The notes under the pieces were generated by a model. It ran no database searches, had not been told where the DNA came from, and worked only from the letters and a program-made list of their open reading frames with translations. The position numbers and the translations under genes are program-made. A stretch of 7,138 nt of DNA from a virus (Duplodnaviria > Heunggongvirae > Uroviricota > Caudoviricetes), in IMG/VR virus record IMGVR_UViG_2802429226_000002, positions 1 through 7,138 of that record; one strand, written 5' to 3'. Of the stretch, positions 1 through 7,138 are shown one piece after another (within the stretch, counting starts at the first letter, position 1; the number at the start of each line of letters is the position of its first letter).

Positions 1-159
1 GTGGTTGGTTATTACCCGAAATTAAGCCAGCTCGTTTCCGGCCTGATGCATCACGATATTCTGACCGGAAGCGCAAAATCTTTTGCCGATTTAAACGCGC
101 AGGTTGAGCAACTCAGCAAGCGTTGTTCAGAGGCGTTCTCCAGAGGAGCGTCTGAATGA
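1..159 (+). CDS. 3' end of an upstream early-operon gene (partial; N-terminus lies outside the window). By synteny possibly a P2 B-like or other early gene, identity not established.
   Basis: Frame 1 is open from base 1 to a TGA at 157-159 (translation ...KRCSEAFSRGASE*). The stop overlaps the ATG of the next gene (ATGA at 156-159), typical of translationally coupled phage operons. Not in the ORF track because it has no start within the window. Confidence 0.4.
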   Translation: MVGYYPKLSQLVSGLMHHDILTGSAKSFADLNAQVEQLSKRCSEAFSRGASE

Positions 160-1163
160 TTACTGATGCACGTTGCCATACTGAAAATACCATCAATGTT
201 ATTTTTGTTTCAGGTGGAAAGGACAGCCTTGCTCAGTGGCTTGTCGCTATTGAAGAAAATGTACCCATATTGCCGGTTTTTGCTGATACGGGACATGAAC
301 ATCCACAGACAATGAAATATCTGGATTATCTGGAAAAACGGCTTGGCCCAATTAAAAGAGTCAGGGCTGATTTTTCCTGCCGGATTGAATCAAAGCGCAA
401 GTTTATCCAGACCAAATGGCCTGATTTGTTGGTTAACGATTGTGGAATGTCGGAAGAAGAAGCACGCCAGCGCATCAGTTGTGCGCTGGAAATTCTCAAA
501 CCAACGGGTATCCCGTTTCTTGATTTGTGTTTGTGGAAGGGGCGTTTCCCATCAACCAAAGCCAGATTTTGCACATTTGAACTGAAACATGAGCCCGTGC
601 GTTCTCAGGTAATATTGCCTTTACTCAATGAATTTGAGGAAGTGATTAGCTGGCAGGGAGTGCGTGCTCAGGAATCGCCATCACGCGCAGCTTTACCTGT
701 CTGGGAAGAGGATGCAGACAACACCCCCGGATTGCATGTATATCGCCCGATTTTGCACTGGAAGCATGAAGATGTATTTGCAATAGCCAGAAGACATGAC
801 ATTAAGCCAAATCCGTTATATCAGCAGGGGTGTGGCCGTGTTGGTTGTATGCCATGTATTCATGTCCGTAAATCTGAACTGGCAGAAATTTTTCGCCGGT
901 GGCCGGAGGAAATAAAACGGGTTGCTGAATGGGAACGACTGGTTGCGTCGTGCTCCCGTCGGGGAAATTCCACTTTTTTCCCATCCACACATGATCCGCT
1001 ACGCGCAGAACGTCGTATTGAGATTGTAACAGTCGAGGCATACGGAATAGAAACCTACCATGACTGGACAATGACAACGCGTGGGGGTACTCAGTTTGAT
1101 TTACTGGCTTCGGCGAATGATAAAGCCGTTTGCAGTAGTGTCTATGCCGGTGTATGTGAATGA
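156..1163 (+). CDS. PP-loop ATP pyrophosphatase superfamily protein (PAPS reductase-like), 335 aa; phage accessory gene of unknown role
   Basis: N-terminal SGGKDS motif (nt 210-227) is the classic SGGxDS PP-loop of the PAPS reductase / ATP sulfurylase-like family. A Cys cluster C-x4-C-x2-C (CGRVGCMPC, nt 831-857) lies near the C-terminal third. A GAGGAG Shine-Dalgarno sits at 143-148, 7 nt upstream of the ATG. The stop overlaps the start of gene A (ATGA at 1160-1163). Confidence 0.75.
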   Translation: MITDARCHTENTINVIFVSGGKDSLAQWLVAIEENVPILPVFADTGHEHPQTMKYLDYLEKRLGPIKRVRADFSCRIESKRKFIQTKWPDLLVNDCGMSEEEARQRISCALEILKPTGIPFLDLCLWKGRFPSTKARFCTFELKHEPVRSQVILPLLNEFEEVISWQGVRAQESPSRAALPVWEEDADNTPGLHVYRPILHWKHEDVFAIARRHDIKPNPLYQQGCGRVGCMPCIHVRKSELAEIFRRWPEEIKRVAEWERLVASCSRRGNSTFFPSTHDPLRAERRIEIVTVEAYGIETYHDWTMTTRGGTQFDLLASANDKAVCSSVYAGVCE

Positions 1164-3433
1164 GTCATTCTTTCCAGGAGCAATACACCTGCGTACCTCC
1201 GTCTGCGTTTGCCGCAGGCACCGGTAAGGCGTTTACCGGTGCTTATGCATGGAATGCGCCACGCGAGGCTGTCGGGCGCGAAAGACCCCTTACACGTGAC
1301 GAGATGCGTCAGGTGCAAGGTGTTTTATCCACGATTAACCGCCTGCCTTACTTTTTGCGCTCGCTGTTTACTTCACGCTATGACTACATCCGGCGCAATA
1401 AAAGCCCGGTGCACGGGTTTTATTTCCTCACATCCACTTTTCAGCGCCGTTTATGGCCGCGTATTGAGCGCGTGAATCAGCGCCATGAAATGAACACCGA
1501 CGCGTCGTTGCTGTTTCTGGCAGAGCGTGACCATTATGCGCGTCTGCCGGGGATGAATGACAAGGAGCTGAAAAAGTTTGCCGCCCGTATCTCATCGCAG
1601 CTTTTCATGATGTATGAGGAACTCTGCGATGCATGGGTTGATGCACATGGCGAGAAAGAATCGCTGTTTACAGATGAGGCGCAGGCGCATCTGTATGGTC
1701 ATGTTGCTGGCGCTGCACGTGCTTTCAATATTTCCCCTCTCTACTGGAAAAAATACCGTAAAGGACAGATGACCACGAGGCAGGCATATTCTGCCATTGC
1801 CCGTCTGTTTAACGATGAGTGGTGGACTCATCAGCTTAAAGGCCAGCGTATGCGCTGGCATGAGGCGTTACTGATTGCTGTCGGGGAGGTCAATAAAGAC
1901 CGTTCTCCTTATGCCAGTAAACATGCCATTCGTGATGTGCGTGCGCGCCGCCAGGCAAATCTGGAATTTCTTAAATCGTGTGACCTTGAAAACAAGGAAA
2001 CCGGCGAGCGCATCGACCTTATCAGTAAGGTGATGGGCAGTATTTCTAATCCAGAAATTCGCCGGATGGAGCTGATGAACACCATCGCCGGTATTGAGCG
2101 TTACGCCGCAGCAGAGGGTGATGTGGGGATGTTTATCACGCTGACCGCGCCGTCAAAGTATCACCCGACACGTCAGGTCGGAAAAGGCGAAAGTAAAACC
2201 GTGCAGCTTAATCACGGCTGGAACGATGAGGCATTTAATCCAAAGGATGCGCAGCGTTATCTCTGCCGTATCTGGAGCCTGATGCGCACGGCATTCAAGG
2301 ATAATGATTTACAGGTCTACGGTTTGCGAGTCGTCGAGCCACACCACGACGGAACGCCGCACTGGCATATGATGCTTTTTTGTAATCCACGCCAGCGTAA
2401 CCAGATTATTGAAATCATGCGTCGCTACGCGCTCAAAGAGGATGGCGACGAAAGAGGAGCTGCGCGAAACCGTTTTCAGGCAAAACACCTTAACCGGGGC
2501 GGTGCTGCGGGATATATCGCGAAATACATTTCAAAAAACATCGACGGCTATGCACTGGATGGTCAGCTCGATAACGATACCGGCAGGCCGCTGAAAGACA
2601 CTGCCGCGGCTGTTACCGCATGGGCGTCAACGTGGCGCATTCCGCAATTTAAAACGGTTGGCCTGCCGACAATGGGGGCTTACCGTGAACTACGCAAATT
2701 GCCTCGCGGCGTCAGCATTGCTGATGAGTTTGACGAACGCGTCGAGGCTGCACGCGCTGCCGCAGACAGTGGCGATTTTGCGCTGTATATCAGCGCGCAG
2801 GGTGGGGCAAATGTCCCGCGCGATTGCCAGACTGTCAGGGTCGCCCGTAGCCCCTCGGATGACGTTAACGAGTACGAGGAAGAAGTCGAGAGAGTGGTCG
2901 GCATTTACGCGCCGCATCTCGGCGCGCGTCATATTCATATCACCAGAACGACGGACTGGCGCATTGTGCCGAAAGTTCCGGTCGTTCAGCCTTTGACTTT
3001 AAAAAGCGGCATCGCCGCGCCTCGGAGTCCTGTCAATAACTGTGGAAAGTTCACCGGCGGTGATGCTTCGTTACCGGCTCCCACACCTTCTGAACACGCC
3101 GCAGCAGTGCTTAATCTGGTTGATGACGGTGTTATCGAATGGAATGACCAGGAGGTCGTGAGGGCGCTCAGGGGCGCATTAAAACACGACATGAGAACAC
3201 CAAATCGTCAGCAAAGAAACGGAAGCCCGTTAAAACCGCATGAAATTGCGCCATCGGCCAGACTGACCCGGTCGGAACGAATGCAAATCACCCGTATCCG
3301 CGTTGACCTTGGTCAGAACGGTATCAGCCCTCAGCGATGGGAGCTTGAGGCGCTGGCGCGTGGGGCAACCGTAAATTATGAGGGGGTAAACTTCAGGTAT
3401 CCGGTAAATGATGAGTGGCCGGGATTTAATTAA
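1160..3433 (+). CDS. A: Rolling-circle replication initiation endonuclease, P2 gpA family (HUH superfamily), 757 aa
   Basis: Long ORF with an HUH motif (PHWHMML; H-W-H at nt 2360-2368) and a paired-tyrosine motif G-Y-IAK-Y-ISK (Tyr codons at 2513-2515 and 2525-2527), matching the catalytic signature known for P2 A protein. Position immediately upstream of the hotspot and cos fits the P2 gene order. Confidence 0.9.
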   Translation: MSHSFQEQYTCVPPSAFAAGTGKAFTGAYAWNAPREAVGRERPLTRDEMRQVQGVLSTINRLPYFLRSLFTSRYDYIRRNKSPVHGFYFLTSTFQRRLWPRIERVNQRHEMNTDASLLFLAERDHYARLPGMNDKELKKFAARISSQLFMMYEELCDAWVDAHGEKESLFTDEAQAHLYGHVAGAARAFNISPLYWKKYRKGQMTTRQAYSAIARLFNDEWWTHQLKGQRMRWHEALLIAVGEVNKDRSPYASKHAIRDVRARRQANLEFLKSCDLENKETGERIDLISKVMGSISNPEIRRMELMNTIAGIERYAAAEGDVGMFITLTAPSKYHPTRQVGKGESKTVQLNHGWNDEAFNPKDAQRYLCRIWSLMRTAFKDNDLQVYGLRVVEPHHDGTPHWHMMLFCNPRQRNQIIEIMRRYALKEDGDERGAARNRFQAKHLNRGGAAGYIAKYISKNIDGYALDGQLDNDTGRPLKDTAAAVTAWASTWRIPQFKTVGLPTMGAYRELRKLPRGVSIADEFDERVEAARAAADSGDFALYISAQGGANVPRDCQTVRVARSPSDDVNEYEEEVERVVGIYAPHLGARHIHITRTTDWRIVPKVPVVQPLTLKSGIAAPRSPVNNCGKFTGGDASLPAPTPSEHAAAVLNLVDDGVIEWNDQEVVRALRGALKHDMRTPNRQQRNGSPLKPHEIAPSARLTRSERMQITRIRVDLGQNGISPQRWELEALARGATVNYEGVNFRYPVNDEWPGFN
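3017..3036 (+). other. Candidate origin of replication (ori / gpA nick region) inside the A coding sequence
   Basis: In P2 the ori lies within the 3' part of gene A (established). The sequence GCGCCTCGGAGTCCTGTCAA here resembles my recollection of the P2 ori nick region. Exact site and boundaries are uncertain and from memory only. Confidence 0.3.
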
Positions 3434-3632: not shown

Positions 3633-3652
3633 GACGGTGTGTGAACACCGTC
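3633..3652. terminator. Perfect 8-bp stem / 4-nt loop hairpin between convergent genes; possible weak bidirectional terminator or RNA-stabilising stem-loop
   Basis: GACGGTGT (3633-3640), loop GTGA, ACACCGTC (3645-3652). It lies about 200 nt after the A stop and about 30 nt after the stop of the - strand ATPase gene. The following T-run is weak on both strands (GTTCTTAC on +), so it is not a textbook intrinsic terminator. Confidence 0.3.
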
Positions 3653-3680: not shown

Positions 3681-5900
3681 CTAAGCGGTAACGGTTTCCT
3701 CTTCCTCTTCGTCCATCATTTTCAAATAATGTTTTTCATCACCAGTCATACGAAAAATGGTTTTTAGTTGCTCCATATATTTCTCTGGAGATATATCTCC
3801 CATGTCTGTGATGTTAACTGCATCTGAATGGGAACCTCTATTAATGTATCTATAAAATGCTCTAAAATCATTATTCTTATCATCGCTAGCAAGTTTATTT
3901 AACTCTGTCTGTAATGCATCCGTTCTATGAACAAATGCGAAGTAGTATTCCAGTATATTTCTCATGATGTTAGGTATTATAACTTTATTTACCTTTCCAT
4001 CCTTCGCATCTTTTAATACTTGCCATAGGGACTGGTATTCATTCTGAATGCTCTTTTTCTCTATTTCTGTAATTATGCTATATTCATTTTTTGTTACTCG
4101 TCCAAGATAATAATCACGCTTGAATGTTCTATCTTCTTTGCTTCTAGGAGCTAATTTGATAAGTTCATGAAAGAAATAAAGATTATGTGTGAGTATTAAT
4201 GTTTTCTTTACTGCTTTGTTATTGTTGATTATTTCATGGTGAATTATTGAGGCAATATCGTACACATAATTTTGAGAGAGGCTGGATATTGGATCATCAA
4301 TAACGATAAATACATCTCGCATATCCGTATCATTCTTATCTGTCTTACCTTTACAGCATTCTAGAAAGTAGAGAAAGGTAATTAAGGTTTTTTCACCCTC
4401 GCTAAGAGATCTGTATACATCTTTATCTGTTGTGTTTTCAGAACGTGATATAATATATTTATCATTGCTCTCAGTGTGTTTTTTTATGCTAAAACCATAA
4501 ATTCCTAATAATTTTAGACGTTGATTTATAGAATCTATGGTTGCATCAATATTAGATATTTGATCGCGTAGCTCTTTGATCTTTTTGTTATTGTTATCTC
4601 CTTGTTCTTTTATGGAATTTAATTCAAGTTGATATTGTTCATAAATGATTTTATAGTCATTCTCATATTTTGAGAAAGCTTCAAACTCAGCGTTGCATAA
4701 TTCTCTTATTGCTCCCCATATTTTGTAACGTATAGACTTTTCACTATCCTTAAATTGTTTGACTTTAATATTTATTTCTTTAATTCTATTGTTGTACTCT
4801 GTTATATTATCAACTACCTTTGCTTCAAGGTCGCTATTGGATTCCAAAATAATAGATATAGATGGGTTATTGATTTTATCTAACATCAATTTTAAATTTT
4901 TGTTTGCTATTTCCTCTAATAACGCTATATGAGATGATGTTATATCTTTTTCTTTTGAGGTGATTAATTCACAAGATGAAATCTCTTGTTTTATTTTTTT
5001 TAAATTATCTATGGTAGCGGATTCATAAGACGATCTGATAATGCGTATTTGGTCAACTTTCTTGGAGTAGCTATCATCAAAGATAGATTCTATTGCTTCT
5101 AAAAATTTGTCTTTAATAGTGTCTTCTTGGCAGAATGGGCAACATGTGCCATTTAAATATAATTCCTTCCCTTTTTTCACCCAGTCAAGGTTTTGAAGTT
5201 GTTTAATTGTTTCTGACAAATAGCTATTACTTGAGTCTATAATCGGAGTGGATAAAAATTCTTTATCTTTTTCTGAAATGATATATTTTTCTAAAGGTGT
5301 AATTGATGCAGTGAATTTATCTTTGTTCTTTAAAAGAATACTATATTCTTGAGCAAGTGACTCGATATTAACGTCAGTGGTTTGAGGGGCTTTTTTAACT
5401 TGCTCATAAAATGATCTCTTGCTTCCTAACTGACCTTTCATCAAGATCTTTAAGTCAGATGATCTAAAAGGTTCTGCTTTATTCCATATTAAATCAATAT
5501 ATTCATTTTCTTTATTGTTTTTATCTTTAATTAAACGCTCAATAACGTTTTTTTTATCTTTGTATTTTGTAAGTAGGTCTTGTCTTATAGCTTCTTTTTC
5601 CAGCAATTCTTTTTCAATGTCAGCATTTTCCTTACTTAAAGTGAATACTCCTTTTTGCTCTTTTGCATTATAAAAATTATCCTCAACAAACTTGGTATTA
5701 TAAACCAATAGGCGAAAAGTATCTATGAAAGGACATTCGCATTCTTTGTAGTCCGTGTTATTTGGATTATAGAAATAATTAGATATAGTTGATTTTCCAC
5801 AACCGTTGTGTCCATAAAGTATATTAATTTTTTTTGAGAGATTAAGAGTCGTGAAGCTATCTTTCTTATAGCTGGTTATATTCTTTAATTTAAGTTCCAT
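3681..5900 (-). CDS. ABC/SMC-like (AAA_13-type) ATPase with coiled-coil insertion, CxxC motif and C-terminal effector-like domain, 739 aa; candidate single-gene anti-phage defence protein, RloC/PrrC-like (hypothesis)
   Basis: Walker A GHNGCGKST (aa 30-38, nt 5787-5813). ABC signature LSEGEK (aa 499-504, nt 4389-4406). Walker B VFIVIDDP (aa 530-537, nt 4290-4313) followed by an LTHN H-loop-like motif. About 400 aa of K/E-rich, heptad-like sequence between Walker A and the signature, with CCPFC at aa 253-257 (nt 5130-5144). C-terminal ~150 aa form a separate domain. GAGG RBS 7 nt upstream of the ATG (read on the - strand). The gene is strongly AT-rich relative to its flanks. Confidence 0.85.
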   Translation of the reverse strand: MELKLKNITSYKKDSFTTLNLSKKINILYGHNGCGKSTISNYFYNPNNTDYKECECPFIDTFRLLVYNTKFVEDNFYNAKEQKGVFTLSKENADIEKELLEKEAIRQDLLTKYKDKKNVIERLIKDKNNKENEYIDLIWNKAEPFRSSDLKILMKGQLGSKRSFYEQVKKAPQTTDVNIESLAQEYSILLKNKDKFTASITPLEKYIISEKDKEFLSTPIIDSSNSYLSETIKQLQNLDWVKKGKELYLNGTCCPFCQEDTIKDKFLEAIESIFDDSYSKKVDQIRIIRSSYESATIDNLKKIKQEISSCELITSKEKDITSSHIALLEEIANKNLKLMLDKINNPSISIILESNSDLEAKVVDNITEYNNRIKEINIKVKQFKDSEKSIRYKIWGAIRELCNAEFEAFSKYENDYKIIYEQYQLELNSIKEQGDNNNKKIKELRDQISNIDATIDSINQRLKLLGIYGFSIKKHTESNDKYIISRSENTTDKDVYRSLSEGEKTLITFLYFLECCKGKTDKNDTDMRDVFIVIDDPISSLSQNYVYDIASIIHHEIINNNKAVKKTLILTHNLYFFHELIKLAPRSKEDRTFKRDYYLGRVTKNEYSIITEIEKKSIQNEYQSLWQVLKDAKDGKVNKVIIPNIMRNILEYYFAFVHRTDALQTELNKLASDDKNNDFRAFYRYINRGSHSDAVNITDMGDISPEKYMEQLKTIFRMTGDEKHYLKMMDEEEEETVTA

Positions 5901-5936
5901 TTTAAAACCTCATCATTGCCAATGATATTGTATAAA

Positions 5937-5990
5937 TATTTAAGCTGTTTAACATGAATTATATTGCTAAACGATAAAGATCTACCTCAG
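5937..5990 (-). promoter_or_regulatory. Candidate promoter region for the ATPase gene
   Basis: On the - strand a perfect TATAAT hexamer (plus coordinates 5958-5963) lies about 58 nt upstream of the ATG at 5900. No convincing -35 was found (GGTAGA-like at 17 bp). The region is so AT-rich that chance -10-like hexamers are expected. Confidence 0.2.
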
Positions 5991-6230: not shown

Positions 6231-6249
6231 GGCGAGGCGGGGAAAGCAC
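6231..6249. other. cos: cos site: 19-nt cohesive-end sequence of P2-type phages
   Basis: GGCGAGGCGGGGAAAGCAC at 6231-6249 matches my recollection of the P2 19-nt 5'-protruding cohesive end. It is placed as expected in a prophage or circularised genome, between the right-end hotspot and the portal gene Q. Flanking sequence is GC-rich, unlike the AT-rich insert. Confidence 0.7.
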
Positions 6250-6418: not shown

Positions 6419-7138
6419 TCAGCCGTTGTCAGTGTCCAGTGAGTAGTTTTTAAAGCGGATGACCTCCTGACCGAGCCAGCCGTTTATTTCCCGAATCCTG
6501 TCCTGTAACGGGATAAGCTCATTGCGGACAAAGACCTTTGCCACTTTCTCAATATCACCCAGCGACCCGACGTTCTCCGGCTTGCCACCCATCAACTGAA
6601 AGGGGATGCGGTGCGCGTCCAGCAGGTCAGCGGAGCTGGCTTTTTTGATATTAAAAAAATCGTCCTTCGTTGCCACTTCACTGAGCGGGATAATTTTGAT
6701 GCCGTCTGGCTTTCCCTGCGGTGCATAGAGAAACAGGTTTTTAAAGTTGTTGCGGCCTTTTGACTTGACCATGTTTTCGCGGAGCATTTCGATATCGTTG
6801 CGATCCTGCACGGCATCGGTGACATACATGATGTATCCGGCATGTGCGCCGTTTTCATAATACTTGCGGCGGAACAGCGTGGCTGATTCATTCAGCCACG
6901 CAGAGTTAAGGGCGCTGAGATATTCCGGCAGACCGTACAGCTCCTGATTAATATCCGGCTCCAGCAGGTGAAACACGGAGCCGGGCGCGAAAGGTGTCGG
7001 CTCGTTGAAGGACGGCACCCACCAGTAAACATCCTCCTCCACGCCACGGCGGGTATATTTTGCCGGTGAGGTTTCCAGTCTGATGACCTTACCGGTGGTG
7101 CTGTAACGCTTTTCCAGAAACGCATTACCGAACACCAG
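6419..7138 (-). CDS. Q: Portal protein, P2 gpQ-like (PBSX-family portal), 3' part only; the N-terminus lies beyond the window end
   Basis: The - strand ORF is open to the window edge (the codon at 7136-7138 is sense) and stops at 6419-6421. It sits immediately beside cos, as Q does in P2. The translation (…YGLPEYLSALNSAWLNE…NGAHAGYIMYV…) is consistent in character with phage portal proteins; family assignment is by synteny plus recollection. Confidence 0.8.
   Translation of the reverse strand: MVFGNAFLEKRYSTTGKVIRLETSPAKYTRRGVEEDVYWWVPSFNEPTPFAPGSVFHLLEPDINQELYGLPEYLSALNSAWLNESATLFRRKYYENGAHAGYIMYVTDAVQDRNDIEMLRENMVKSKGRNNFKNLFLYAPQGKPDGIKIIPLSEVATKDDFFNIKKASSADLLDAHRIPFQLMGGKPENVGSLGDIEKVAKVFVRNELIPLQDRIREINGWLGQEVIRFKNYSLDTDNG

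What the first reader, a model, noticed from the sequence alone, without database searches (positions are those of the whole stretch)
5130..5144. CCPFC motif in the middle of the coiled-coil: candidate zinc hook
A CxxC (C254-P-F-C257, preceded by C253) sits near the middle of the predicted coiled-coil, embedded in ...KELYLNGTCCPFCQEDTIKDKF.... Rad50 and RloC have a CxxC zinc hook at the coiled-coil apex that mediates dimerisation or DNA-damage sensing. This is the strongest single-site argument for the RloC-like assignment.
Basis: inference. Interest (0 to 1): 0.55.

Follow-up and report, generated by a model that had tools for sequence, protein, structure and literature searches.

The report
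RloC-type zinc-hook motif, prophage tRNase
The CPFC motif is real and is the invariant Cys-x-x-Cys "zinc hook" of the already described RloC family of anticodon nucleases, here carried as a single defence-type gene in the variable slot of a P2-like prophage, so it is a correct call but not a new kind of thing.

Summary
Observation confirmed. Bases 5130-5144 (minus strand) encode C253-C254-P255-F256-C257 of a 739-aa ORF (3681-5900).

A CxxC alone is weak evidence: 11% of shuffles of this protein contain one. But C254 and C257 are invariant in 395/395 full-length homologues, down to about 20% identity. C253 is not conserved.

The protein meets every sequence criterion that defined RloC (Davidov & Kaufmann 2008):
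- ABC-ATPase motifs
- a helical insert carrying CX2C
- an R647-x3-E651-x38-S690-H691 nuclease triad
- a length of 739 aa

The family profile aligns CPFCQ onto the mutagenised CAFCGN hook (C291) of Geobacillus RloC. A profile of the hook region ranks the two Pyrococcus Rad50 zinc-hook crystal structures first among all PDB sequences, with CPFC on CPVC.

The gene sits alone between gpA and the cos site/portal gene, in the known P2 defence hotspot. The 2008 paper's table already lists a 738-aa E. coli RloC flanked by phage replication-initiation and capsid genes.

One refinement: covariation shows the stalk's two strands pairing out to about 217/351. The CxxC lies in a roughly 60-residue lobe (218-281) at that distal end, followed by an extra helical hairpin. 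This is not a simple Rad50-style turn.

Zn binding, dimerisation and tRNase activity were not testable. Verdict: new member of a known kind, low-to-moderate interest.

The parts
3681..5900 (-). Complete ORF (739 aa plus stop) for an RloC-family ABC-ATPase/anticodon-nuclease. GC is 30% against about 51% in the flanks.
   Evidence: Pfam AAA_13 over the full length, E 4.6e-102. PADLOC PDC-S06 E 4.4e-253 and PrrC HMM on aa 454-734 E 2.4e-14. Identical to WP_105288656.1, annotated only as 'AAA family ATPase'.
5130..5144 (-). C253-C254-P255-F256-C257. C254-x-x-C257 is the family's invariant CX2C ('zinc hook') motif. C253 is not conserved.
   Evidence: 395/395. Aligned to GkaRloC C291-A-F-C294 and to the Pfu Rad50 CPVC hook.
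5058..5249 (-). CxxC lobe, aa 218-281: short helices 227-235 and 238-248, the loop 249-263 carrying CPFC, and helix 264-273. It contains the conserved I232, W240, G244, F256, Q258 and F274. Its base is closed by the covarying pair 218-281.
   Evidence: AF2 secondary structure. Conservation. Pair 218-281 is the top DCA pair, z 20.8, with K-D to E/T-K charge swaps. The local antiparallel band has z 2.1, p 0.03.
5250..5642 (-). Outgoing (N-terminal) arm of the stalk, aa 87-217. It includes the long helix 90-141 and a short excursion at 154-176.
   Evidence: AF2. The antiparallel covariation bands 87-153/394-450 (z 6.6, 0 of 3000 null bands reach it) and 177-217/351-397 (z 3.5, p 0.007).
4851..5057 (-). 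Extra helical hairpin, aa 282-350 (helices 276-309 and 315-344), between the CxxC lobe and the returning arm.
   Evidence: AF2. Covariation pairs 285-339, 285-343, 216-339, 328-355 and 313-369. Support is marginal (band p 0.035-0.09).
4503..4850 (-). Returning (C-terminal) arm of the stalk, aa 351-466 (helices 356-381, 383-401, 403-448, 451-464).
   Evidence: Salt-bridge-type covariation at 196-381 and 182-390.
5790..5813 (-). Walker A / P-loop G30-H-N-G-C-G-K36-S.
   Evidence: G30, N32, G35 and K36 are invariant.
4392..4406 (-). ABC signature L499-S-E-G-E503.
   Evidence: Invariant or near-invariant.
4278..4310 (-). Walker B / D-loop FIVIDDPISSL (D535, D536).
4185..4187 (-). Switch ('linchpin') histidine H572.
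   Evidence: Invariant.
3684..4055 (-). C-terminal PrrC/RloC-type anticodon-nuclease domain (about aa 616-739) with the triad R647 (nt 3960-3962), E651 (3948-3950) and S690-H691 (3828-3833).
   Evidence: The motif R-x3-E-x38-S-H fits the published RloC pattern R-X3-E-X36-52-H, 'Ser often precedes His'. Conservation. PrrC HMM match.
5908..5951 (-). Likely expression signals: GAGG Shine-Dalgarno at 5908-5911, 7 nt before the ATG, and a sigma-70-like TAAACA-18-TATCAT at 5951-5922.
   Evidence: These are consensus matches only.
6231..6249 (+). Context: exact 19-nt P2 cos sequence GGCGAGGCGGGGAAAGCAC. Together with gpA (1160-3433, +) and the portal gene (6419-7135, -) it places the gene in the P2 gpA-gpQ hotspot.
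   Evidence: The hotspot is described in PMC9122126. That this 19-mer is the P2 cos sequence is my recollection.

Best explanation
The ORF encodes a member of the RloC family: an ABC-ATPase head split by a long helical stalk, fused to a C-terminal PrrC-type (HEPN-like) anticodon nuclease. C254-P-F-C257 is the family's invariant CX2C 'zinc hook'. Shown here: the motif and its absolute conservation, its homology to the hook of G. kaustophilus RloC and its profile-level resemblance to the Rad50 hook, the presence of all RloC sequence hallmarks, an antiparallel stalk whose distal end carries the CxxC lobe, and solo carriage in the cos-proximal gpA-gpQ hotspot of a P2-like prophage. Inferred from published RloC work (PMC2610378, PMC3458546, PMC3874168): the protein dimerises through its ATPase heads. 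Two CxxC motifs, two thiolates each, jointly bind one Zn2+, within a dimer or between dimers. This hooked state keeps the nuclease silent. DNA ends or breaks produced during phage attack stimulate the ATPase, which releases the nuclease. The nuclease cuts tRNA anticodon loops and excises the wobble nucleotide, halting translation and aborting infection of the lysogen. The hook would therefore be a regulatory latch, not only a structural tether.
For: - Motif and coordinates.
- Invariance: C254 and C257 in 395/395 homologues.
- No other cis ligand: no other invariant Cys or His lies in the insert. Only C54 in the head is conserved, in 309/395. A two-ligand site needs partners in trans, as in a hook.
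- Link to GkaRloC: hhalign against the GkaRloC Fig. S1 segment gives probability 95%, E 3.8e-8, with CPFCQ on CAFCGN. The hook-to-Walker-B spacing is 281 residues in both proteins (GkaRloC K44/C291/D572; K36/C254/D535 here).
- Link to Rad50: the hook-region profile puts the Rad50 hook crystals 1L8D and 6ZFF first in the PDB.
- RloC hallmarks: Walker A, signature, Walker B, H572 and R647-x3-E651-x38-S690-H691; PrrC HMM E 2.4e-14; AAA_13 over the full length.
- Stalk: covariation z 6.6.
- Context. Table S1 of PMC2610378 lists a 738-aa E. coli APEC O1 RloC flanked by 'Phage replication initiation, Capsid'.
- Experiments on GkaRloC: hook mutations hyperactivate the nuclease, Zn2+ inhibits the wild type but not the mutant, and C291G uncouples the nuclease from the DNA-dependent ATPase.
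Against: - No Zn binding, dimerisation, tRNA cleavage or phage-defence measurement exists for this protein or its enterobacterial clade.
- No experimental RloC or PrrC structure was detectable in the PDB, so even in the family the 'hook' is a model by analogy.
- The architecture is not a plain Rad50-like hairpin. The stalk register (i+j about 540-575) is not centred on the motif, and a simple hairpin centred on CPFC gets no covariation support (z 0.3). About 70 extra helical residues follow the lobe.
- The lobe has the lowest pLDDT of the insert (64-79). The isolated fragment model was poor and gave no Foldseek hits.
- The tool gives no model coordinates, so exposure of the cysteines could not be checked.
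- The Rad50-hook hit is marginal (E 0.005-0.007) and part of its score comes from the following helix.
Confidence: 0.8

Rival explanations
1. The CxxC is an intramolecular structural zinc knuckle. It stabilises the small apical lobe (218-281) with two further ligands from the same chain, for example C54 of the ATPase head or backbone, carboxylate or water ligands. It does not bridge two protomers.
For: The motif lies in a compact lobe with a conserved aromatic mini-core (I232, W240, F256, F274) and not at a bare helix-turn-helix. C54 is conserved in 309/395 homologues. A few lobe-to-head covariation pairs rank high: 285-538, 11-248, 24-270, 39-223 and 34-278, at ranks 17-38.
Against: No second invariant Cys or His exists anywhere in the insert. 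C54 is Ser in 27 sequences and gapped in 38, and C56 is confined to the clade at or above 53% identity, while the CxxC never varies. The lobe-head pairs are conservative L/I/V and Y/F swaps of the kind phylogeny produces. The head is separated from the lobe by a stalk of at least 65 paired residues per strand.
Confidence: 0.13
2. The CP[F/Y]C is a redox-active dithiol/disulfide switch, like the CPYC motif of glutaredoxins. It would sense oxidative or thiol stress rather than bind zinc.
For: CPFC and CPYC (27 homologues have Y at position 256) match the glutaredoxin active-site pattern; that pattern is my own recollection. A thioltransferase (1KTE) appears as a weak hit of the hook profile, E 0.52.
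Against: The surrounding region is all-helical, with none of the strands of a thioredoxin fold. The better PDB hits are Rad50 hooks. In GkaRloC the motif's phenotype is Zn2+-responsive.
Confidence: 0.05
3. The motif is a chance CxxC with no specific role.
For: 11% of shuffles of this 10-Cys protein contain a CxxC.
Against: It is invariant in 395/395 homologues across many phyla, while the neighbouring C253 and the other cysteines vary.
Confidence: 0.01

Closest known systems
RloC (Geobacillus kaustophilus GkaRloC, Acinetobacter baylyi AbaRloC; Davidov & Kaufmann 2008; Klaiman et al. 2012, 2014)
   Same: The domain order matches: ABC-ATPase head split by a helical insert with an invariant W-x3-G...C-x-F-C motif, followed by a C-terminal nuclease with R-x3-E...S-H. 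The size falls within 658-897 aa. It is a solo gene with no linked type I R-M system. The profile aligns to the GkaRloC hook region. The original Fig. S1 already contains a CPFCQ-type sequence, Q369M3, and Table S1 lists a P2-prophage-flanked E. coli orthologue.
   Different: This is a different sub-clade: CPFCQ versus CAFCGN, and only about 15% identity over the region aligned to GkaRloC. It is prophage-borne, in the P2 gpA-gpQ hotspot. There is no biochemical or genetic data for this clade. Public records annotate it only as 'AAA family ATPase', and PADLOC calls it the candidate system PDC-S06.
Rad50 / SbcC zinc hook (P. furiosus Rad50 hook, PDB 1L8D and 6ZFF)
   Different: In Rad50 the CxxC is the direct turn between the two long coiled-coil helices; that description comes from the RloC papers. 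Here the stalk strands pair out to about 217/351, and the CxxC sits in a 60-residue lobe followed by a further helical hairpin. There is no Mre11/SbcD partner gene. The protein carries a fused RNase domain. The stalk is much shorter.
PrrC anticodon nuclease
   Same: A homologous ABC-ATPase plus C-terminal nuclease with the Arg-Glu-His triad. The PADLOC PrrC HMM matches aa 454-734.
   Different: PrrC (341-416 aa) lacks the coiled-coil/CxxC insert and is always embedded in a type Ic hsd locus. Neither applies here.
P2 Old and other ABC-ATPase + nuclease abortive-infection proteins of the same hotspot (Old, PARIS AriA/B, Lamassu LmuB)
   Same: The same genomic slot as old/tin in P2. The logic is the same: an ABC-ATPase sensor coupled to a nuclease effector, with tRNA as a recurrent target. 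LmuB is a CxxC-bearing SMC-like relative, and RloC appears among its homologues.
   Different: The effector is different (a PrrC-type RNase, not TOPRIM or Cap4). It is a single polypeptide. It belongs to a different ATPase subfamily (AAA_13).

Membership tests
RloC | [quoted passage not shown] | tested here: met
RloC | A largely alpha-helical insert splitting the ATPase domain, interrupted by a loop with a conserved CX2C. | tested here: met
   The insert spans about aa 87-466 and is helical in AF2, with CPFC in loop 249-263. CX2C is present in 395/395 homologues. It is aligned to the GkaRloC hook.
RloC | C-proximal Arg-X3-Glu-X36-52-His motif, with Ser often preceding His (the catalytic ACNase triad). 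| tested here: met
   R647-x3-E651-x38-S690-H691. R is present in 393/395, E in 380/395 and H in 364/395.
RloC | Length 658-897 aa, about twice that of PrrC. | tested here: met
   739 aa.
RloC | The insert folds into an antiparallel coiled coil with the CX2C at its apex. | tested here: inconclusive
   An antiparallel stalk is supported (bands z 6.6 and z 3.5), and the CxxC lies in the region beyond its distal end.
RloC | Zn2+ binding by the hook and Zn-responsive regulation of the nuclease. | not testable with these tools
   Known only for GkaRloC.
RloC | tRNA anticodon-loop cleavage with excision of the wobble nucleotide, and a DNA-dependent ATPase. | not testable with these tools
   Biochemical properties of GkaRloC and AbaRloC.
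Rad50/SbcC | ABC head, very long two-helix antiparallel coiled coil and apical CxxC hook, acting with an Mre11/SbcD nuclease partner in DNA repair. | tested here: not met
   No Mre11/SbcD-like neighbour: the gene is solo between gpA and cos/portal. The protein has a fused RNase domain. The stalk is short and has an elaborated cap. Only the head fold and the hook motif resemble Rad50.
PrrC | A protein of about 340-420 aa without a coiled-coil insert, embedded in a type Ic R-M (hsd) locus. | tested here: not met
   739 aa with a roughly 380-aa insert, and no hsd genes in the window or in related prophages.
P2 gpA-gpQ hotspot cargo (Rousset et al. 2022) | Located between replication gene A and portal gene Q, next to cos, in a P2-like prophage. 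| tested here: met
   Phage_GPA ORF at 1160-3433, portal ORF at 6419-7135, and the exact cos 19-mer at 6231-6249. The same slot is seen in E. coli E7-1N7 and for the 64%-identical P0030. The hotspot is defined in PMC9122126.

The most novel reading that the evidence does not exclude
The RloC 'zinc hook' may not be a Rad50-like tip. It could be a compact CxxC lobe capping a distal four-helix segment. The stalk could bend at the 154-176 excursion, like an SMC elbow, so that the lobe docks on the ATPase active-site region (Walker A residue 34, D-loop residue 538, residue 575) of its own or a partner head. Zn binding would then latch the ATPase and nuclease directly. This would explain why hook mutations uncouple the nuclease from the ATPase.
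Probability: 0.1. Interest if true: 0.55.

Novelty: new member of a known kind. Interest (0 to 1): 0.25.

Why it matters
The finding gives a functional name to a gene that public records carry only as "AAA family ATPase". About 417 near-identical sequences fall in its 90% cluster, and the same slot holds alleles 64-70% identical. PADLOC lists the family only as an unvalidated candidate system (PDC-S06).

The practical prediction is that P2-like prophages can arm their E. coli, Salmonella and related hosts with a tRNA-cutting abortive-infection enzyme.

The absolute conservation of the two cysteines exceeds that of the nuclease histidine. This marks the hook as the key regulatory element and the obvious site for mutagenesis. 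It does not open a new class of system: the motif, its proposed role and a P2-flanked E. coli orthologue were all described in 2008.

Tried and rejected
- AF2 of the isolated hook fragment (aa 222-312) gave pLDDT 76, with the hook loop at 59-72, and Foldseek against the PDB found nothing. This was uninformative.
- A crude heptad score did not discriminate.
- A second database search, using a 150-sequence alignment, returned only 9 new proteins. Depth for covariation came from locus scans instead.
- An apparent covariation band pairing 140-170 with 225-253 was seen with 228 sequences. It would have put the hook beside the stalk, but it vanished with 395 sequences (z 0.1) and was dropped.
- C54/C56 ('CECPF') as the other half of a four-Cys site was rejected. 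C56 is clade-specific, and C54 is Ser or absent in a substantial minority of homologues (65 of 395).
- Lobe-to-head covariation pairs were inspected and judged possibly phylogenetic. They are kept only as the low-probability novel case.
- I searched for a solved RloC or PrrC structure and for papers linking RloC to the P2 hotspot. None was found.
Full report
**What is there**

The window is the cos-proximal end of a P2-like prophage. Its features, in order:
- a PAPS-reductase-domain ORF (156-1163, +)
- replication gene A (1160-3433, +; Pfam Phage_GPA, E 3.4e-124)
- a 739-aa ORF on the minus strand (3681-5900)
- the exact 19-nt P2 cos sequence (6231-6249; that this 19-mer is the P2 cos sequence is my recollection)
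- the 3' part of the portal gene Q (6419-7135, -)

The 739-aa gene has 30% GC against about 51% in its neighbours, so it looks like a horizontally acquired moron. The same arrangement, integrase...gpA - AAA ATPase - portal - terminase, is annotated in E. coli E7-1N7. A 64%-identical allele occupies the same slot. The interval between gpA and gpQ is the published P2 defence hotspot, which holds old and tin in P2 itself (PMC9122126).

**The observation**

A CxxC is not improbable by itself: 11% of shuffles of this protein contain one. The signal is evolutionary.

I assembled 395 full-length homologues from four sources:
- 88 from the word-indexed search
- 150 representatives at 50% identity or less
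- 9 from a second search
- 169 ORFs recovered from genome, metagenome and viral contigs

Conservation of the motif in that alignment:

| Position | Conservation in 395 homologues |
|---|---|
| C254 | 395 |
| C257 | 395 |
| P255 | 381 |
| F256 | F 362, Y 27, L 6 |
| W240 | 392 |
| G244 | 390 |

C253 is not conserved.

In the first 82-sequence alignment only 23 columns are invariant. Three of them are C254, F256 and C257, and most of the rest are ATPase motif residues or the nuclease R647 and S690-H691. The two cysteines are more conserved than the nuclease histidine, which is present in 364/395.

**What the protein is**

Pfam AAA_13 matches end to end (E 4.6e-102). PADLOC assigns it to the candidate single-gene system PDC-S06 (E 4.4e-253), and the PrrC model matches aa 454-734 (E 2.4e-14).

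Davidov & Kaufmann (2008, PMC2610378) defined RloC by four sequence features:
- PrrC-like ABC-ATPase motifs
- a helical insert with a central loop bearing CX2C
- a C-proximal Arg-X3-Glu-X36-52-His motif, often Ser-His
- a length of 658-897 aa

All four are met:
- GxNGxGK36
- LSEGE503
- DD536
- H572
- the insert at about aa 87-466 with CPFC
- R647-x3-E651-x38-S690-H691
- a length of 739 aa

The link to the experimentally studied protein is direct. Aligning the family profile to the G. kaustophilus RloC segment printed in the paper's Fig. S1 gives hhalign probability 95%, E 3.8e-8, and places DWVKxG...CPFCQ on EWVREGLGLHKGLECAFCGN. That is the only CxxC in the segment, and it is the C291 hook mutated by Klaiman et al.. 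The spacing from hook to Walker B is 281 residues in both proteins.

The same figure already contains a CPFCQ-type sequence. Table S1 lists a 738-aa E. coli APEC O1 orthologue flanked by 'Phage replication initiation, Capsid'. That is almost certainly the same P2 slot, though I did not verify this by sequence.

Public records for this exact protein (WP_105288656.1) say only 'AAA family ATPase'. One homologue at 28% identity is named 'wobble nucleotide-excising tRNase' by JGI.

**Resemblance to the Rad50 hook**

I built a profile of aa 222-312 from 27 diverse homologues and searched it against all 177,635 distinct PDB sequences. The top two hits are the two crystal structures of the Pyrococcus furiosus Rad50 zinc hook, 1L8D (E 0.0051) and 6ZFF (E 0.007). 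The alignment sets CPFC on CPVC and continues into the following helix.

**Is the motif at a coiled-coil apex?**

The structure tool returns no coordinates, so I used two indirect routes.

The first was AF2 secondary structure:
- long helices at 90-141 and 403-448
- shorter helices in between
- CPFC in a 15-residue loop (249-263) between helices 238-248 and 264-273
- helices 276-309, 315-344 and 356-401 following

The second was mean-field direct-coupling analysis that I ran on the 395-sequence alignment (Meff 334). The method recovers ordinary intradomain contacts in the ATPase head, which gives some confidence in it. Band tests:

| Band tested | Result |
|---|---|
| Residues 87-153 with 394-450 (i+j about 537-548) | z 6.6; 0 of 3000 random bands reach it |
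| Residues 177-217 with 351-397 (i+j about 566-577) | z 3.5, p 0.007 |
| Local hairpin 223-251 with 254-277 | z 2.1, p 0.03 (marginal) |
| Single long hairpin centred on the CPFC | z 0.3 (no support) |

The second band includes the charge-swapping pairs 196-381 and 182-390. The strongest coupling in the whole protein is 218-281 (z about 20), with K-D changing to E/T-K. Pairs 216-339 and 239-347 follow.

My reading is as follows:
- The two-stranded stalk runs out to about 217/351.
- The 133 residues in between form a CxxC lobe (218-281) followed by an extra helical hairpin (282-350).
- The lobe is closed at its base by the 218-281 contact, and the motif lies near its centre.
- The extra hairpin packs back on the distal stalk.

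The motif is therefore topologically apical and sits at a local turn, not inside a head or nuclease domain. But it is not the bare Rad50-type turn between the two long helices.

The lobe carries a conserved aromatic mini-core (I232, W240, F256, F274) and has the lowest pLDDT of the insert. That is what one might expect of a metal- or partner-dependent element. Orientation and exposure remain open.

**Mechanism**

Shown here:
- the motif, its conservation and its homology
- the domain architecture and stalk
- the genomic context

Inferred from GkaRloC and AbaRloC experiments:
- The heads dimerise.
- Two CxxC motifs share one Zn2+. This fits the fact that no second invariant Cys or His exists in cis.
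- The hooked state silences the nuclease.
- DNA ends or breaks drive the ATPase, which unleashes the nuclease.
- tRNA anticodon loops are cut with excision of the wobble base, a lesion that is hard for T4 Pnk/Rnl1 to repair.
- Translation stops and the infection aborts.

In a P2 lysogen this would protect the prophage's host population, as old and tin do in the same slot.

**Rivals**

- An intramolecular zinc knuckle, possibly using C54, is disfavoured because C54 and C56 are not co-conserved with the motif.
- A glutaredoxin-like redox CPYC/CPFC switch is disfavoured by the all-helical context and by the Zn-responsive phenotype of GkaRloC.
- Chance is excluded by the conservation.
- A handful of lobe-to-head couplings (285-538, 34-278, 24-270, 11-248, 39-223) hint at a fold-back contact with the ATPase site. 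They are conservative substitutions that phylogeny could produce, so I keep this only as the low-probability novel reading.

**Verdict**

The feature is the known RloC zinc-hook motif in a prophage-borne member of a large family: at least 4,082 clusters at 50% identity score E <= 1e-30. The family spans Proteobacteria, Firmicutes, Bacteroidota, Actinobacteria, Chloroflexi, Planctomycetes and Saccharibacteria.

Novelty is 'new member of a known kind'. Interest is low to moderate. The value lies in correct naming, in a clear mutagenesis target, and in the refined picture of the hook as a CxxC lobe on an elaborated stalk tip.

Noticed in passing
window 156-1163 (+): A 335-aa PAPS-reductase-domain ORF lies immediately upstream of gpA, and its stop overlaps the gpA ATG. 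It matches Pfam PAPS_reduct at E 1.2e-34, the PAPS-reductase cores of the PADLOC models SspD (E 2.7e-21), BrxP and DndC, and phrog_424. Only 44 of 5,426 complete E. coli genomes carry at least 80% of this stretch; other P2-like prophages have a DUF5405 gene in this position. It may be a second variable slot with a DNA-modification or anti-defence moron.
   Followed up: partly
window 6231-6249 (+): An exact copy of the 19-nt P2 cohesive-end (cos) sequence GGCGAGGCGGGGAAAGCAC (0 matches in 200 shuffles). It confirms that the gene lies in the cos-proximal hotspot. That this 19-mer is the P2 cos sequence is my recollection.
   Followed up: yes
homologues on loci L099, L107, L134-L155 and others (mostly IMG/VR viral contigs): 31 of 395 homologues lack the Ser-His of the nuclease triad; the aligned region reads IS-DG and similar. 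Those inspected have a CPYCQQ-type hook (one CPFCQQ) and keep the CxxC, Walker A/B and R-x3-E. They may have a shifted or alternative catalytic residue, or a non-nuclease effector role.
   Followed up: partly
window 5733-5741 (-), aa 54-56 'CEC': A second cysteine pair sits in the ATPase head, in the peptide 'ECECPF', which echoes 'CCPFC'. C54 is conserved in 309/395 homologues (Ser in 27). C56 occurs only in the enterobacterial clade at or above 53% identity. Their role is unknown, and they are not co-conserved with the hook.
   Followed up: partly
aa pairs 285-538, 11-248, 24-270, 39-223, 34-278 of the ORF: Covariation pairs link the CxxC lobe to residues around the ATP site (Walker A residue 34, D-loop residue 538). 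They rank 17-38 of about 270,000 pairs. All are conservative L/I/V or Y/F exchanges, so they may be phylogenetic artefacts. Otherwise they would suggest a lobe-head contact.
   Followed up: partly
window 3633-3652: An inverted repeat GACGGTG-N6-CACCGTC lies about 30 nt past the stop codon of the minus-strand gene, in the 247-nt gap between the convergent gpA and the RloC-like gene. There is no T-run after it. It may be a bidirectional terminator or a regulatory hairpin.
   Followed up: no
protein clusters P0046, P0042, P0044: Truncated alleles of the same family (536-559 aa, covering about 73-75% of the query) are very common in E. coli; cluster P0046 has 1,244 member sequences. Many prophages may therefore carry decayed copies.
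   Followed up: no
whole ORF 3681-5900: The exact protein is WP_105288656.1, found in 'unclassified Escherichia', with near-identical copies in E. coli and Salmonella Infantis. All are annotated only as 'AAA family ATPase'. Full-length DNA matches occur in 21 of 5,426 complete E. coli genomes.
   Followed up: yes
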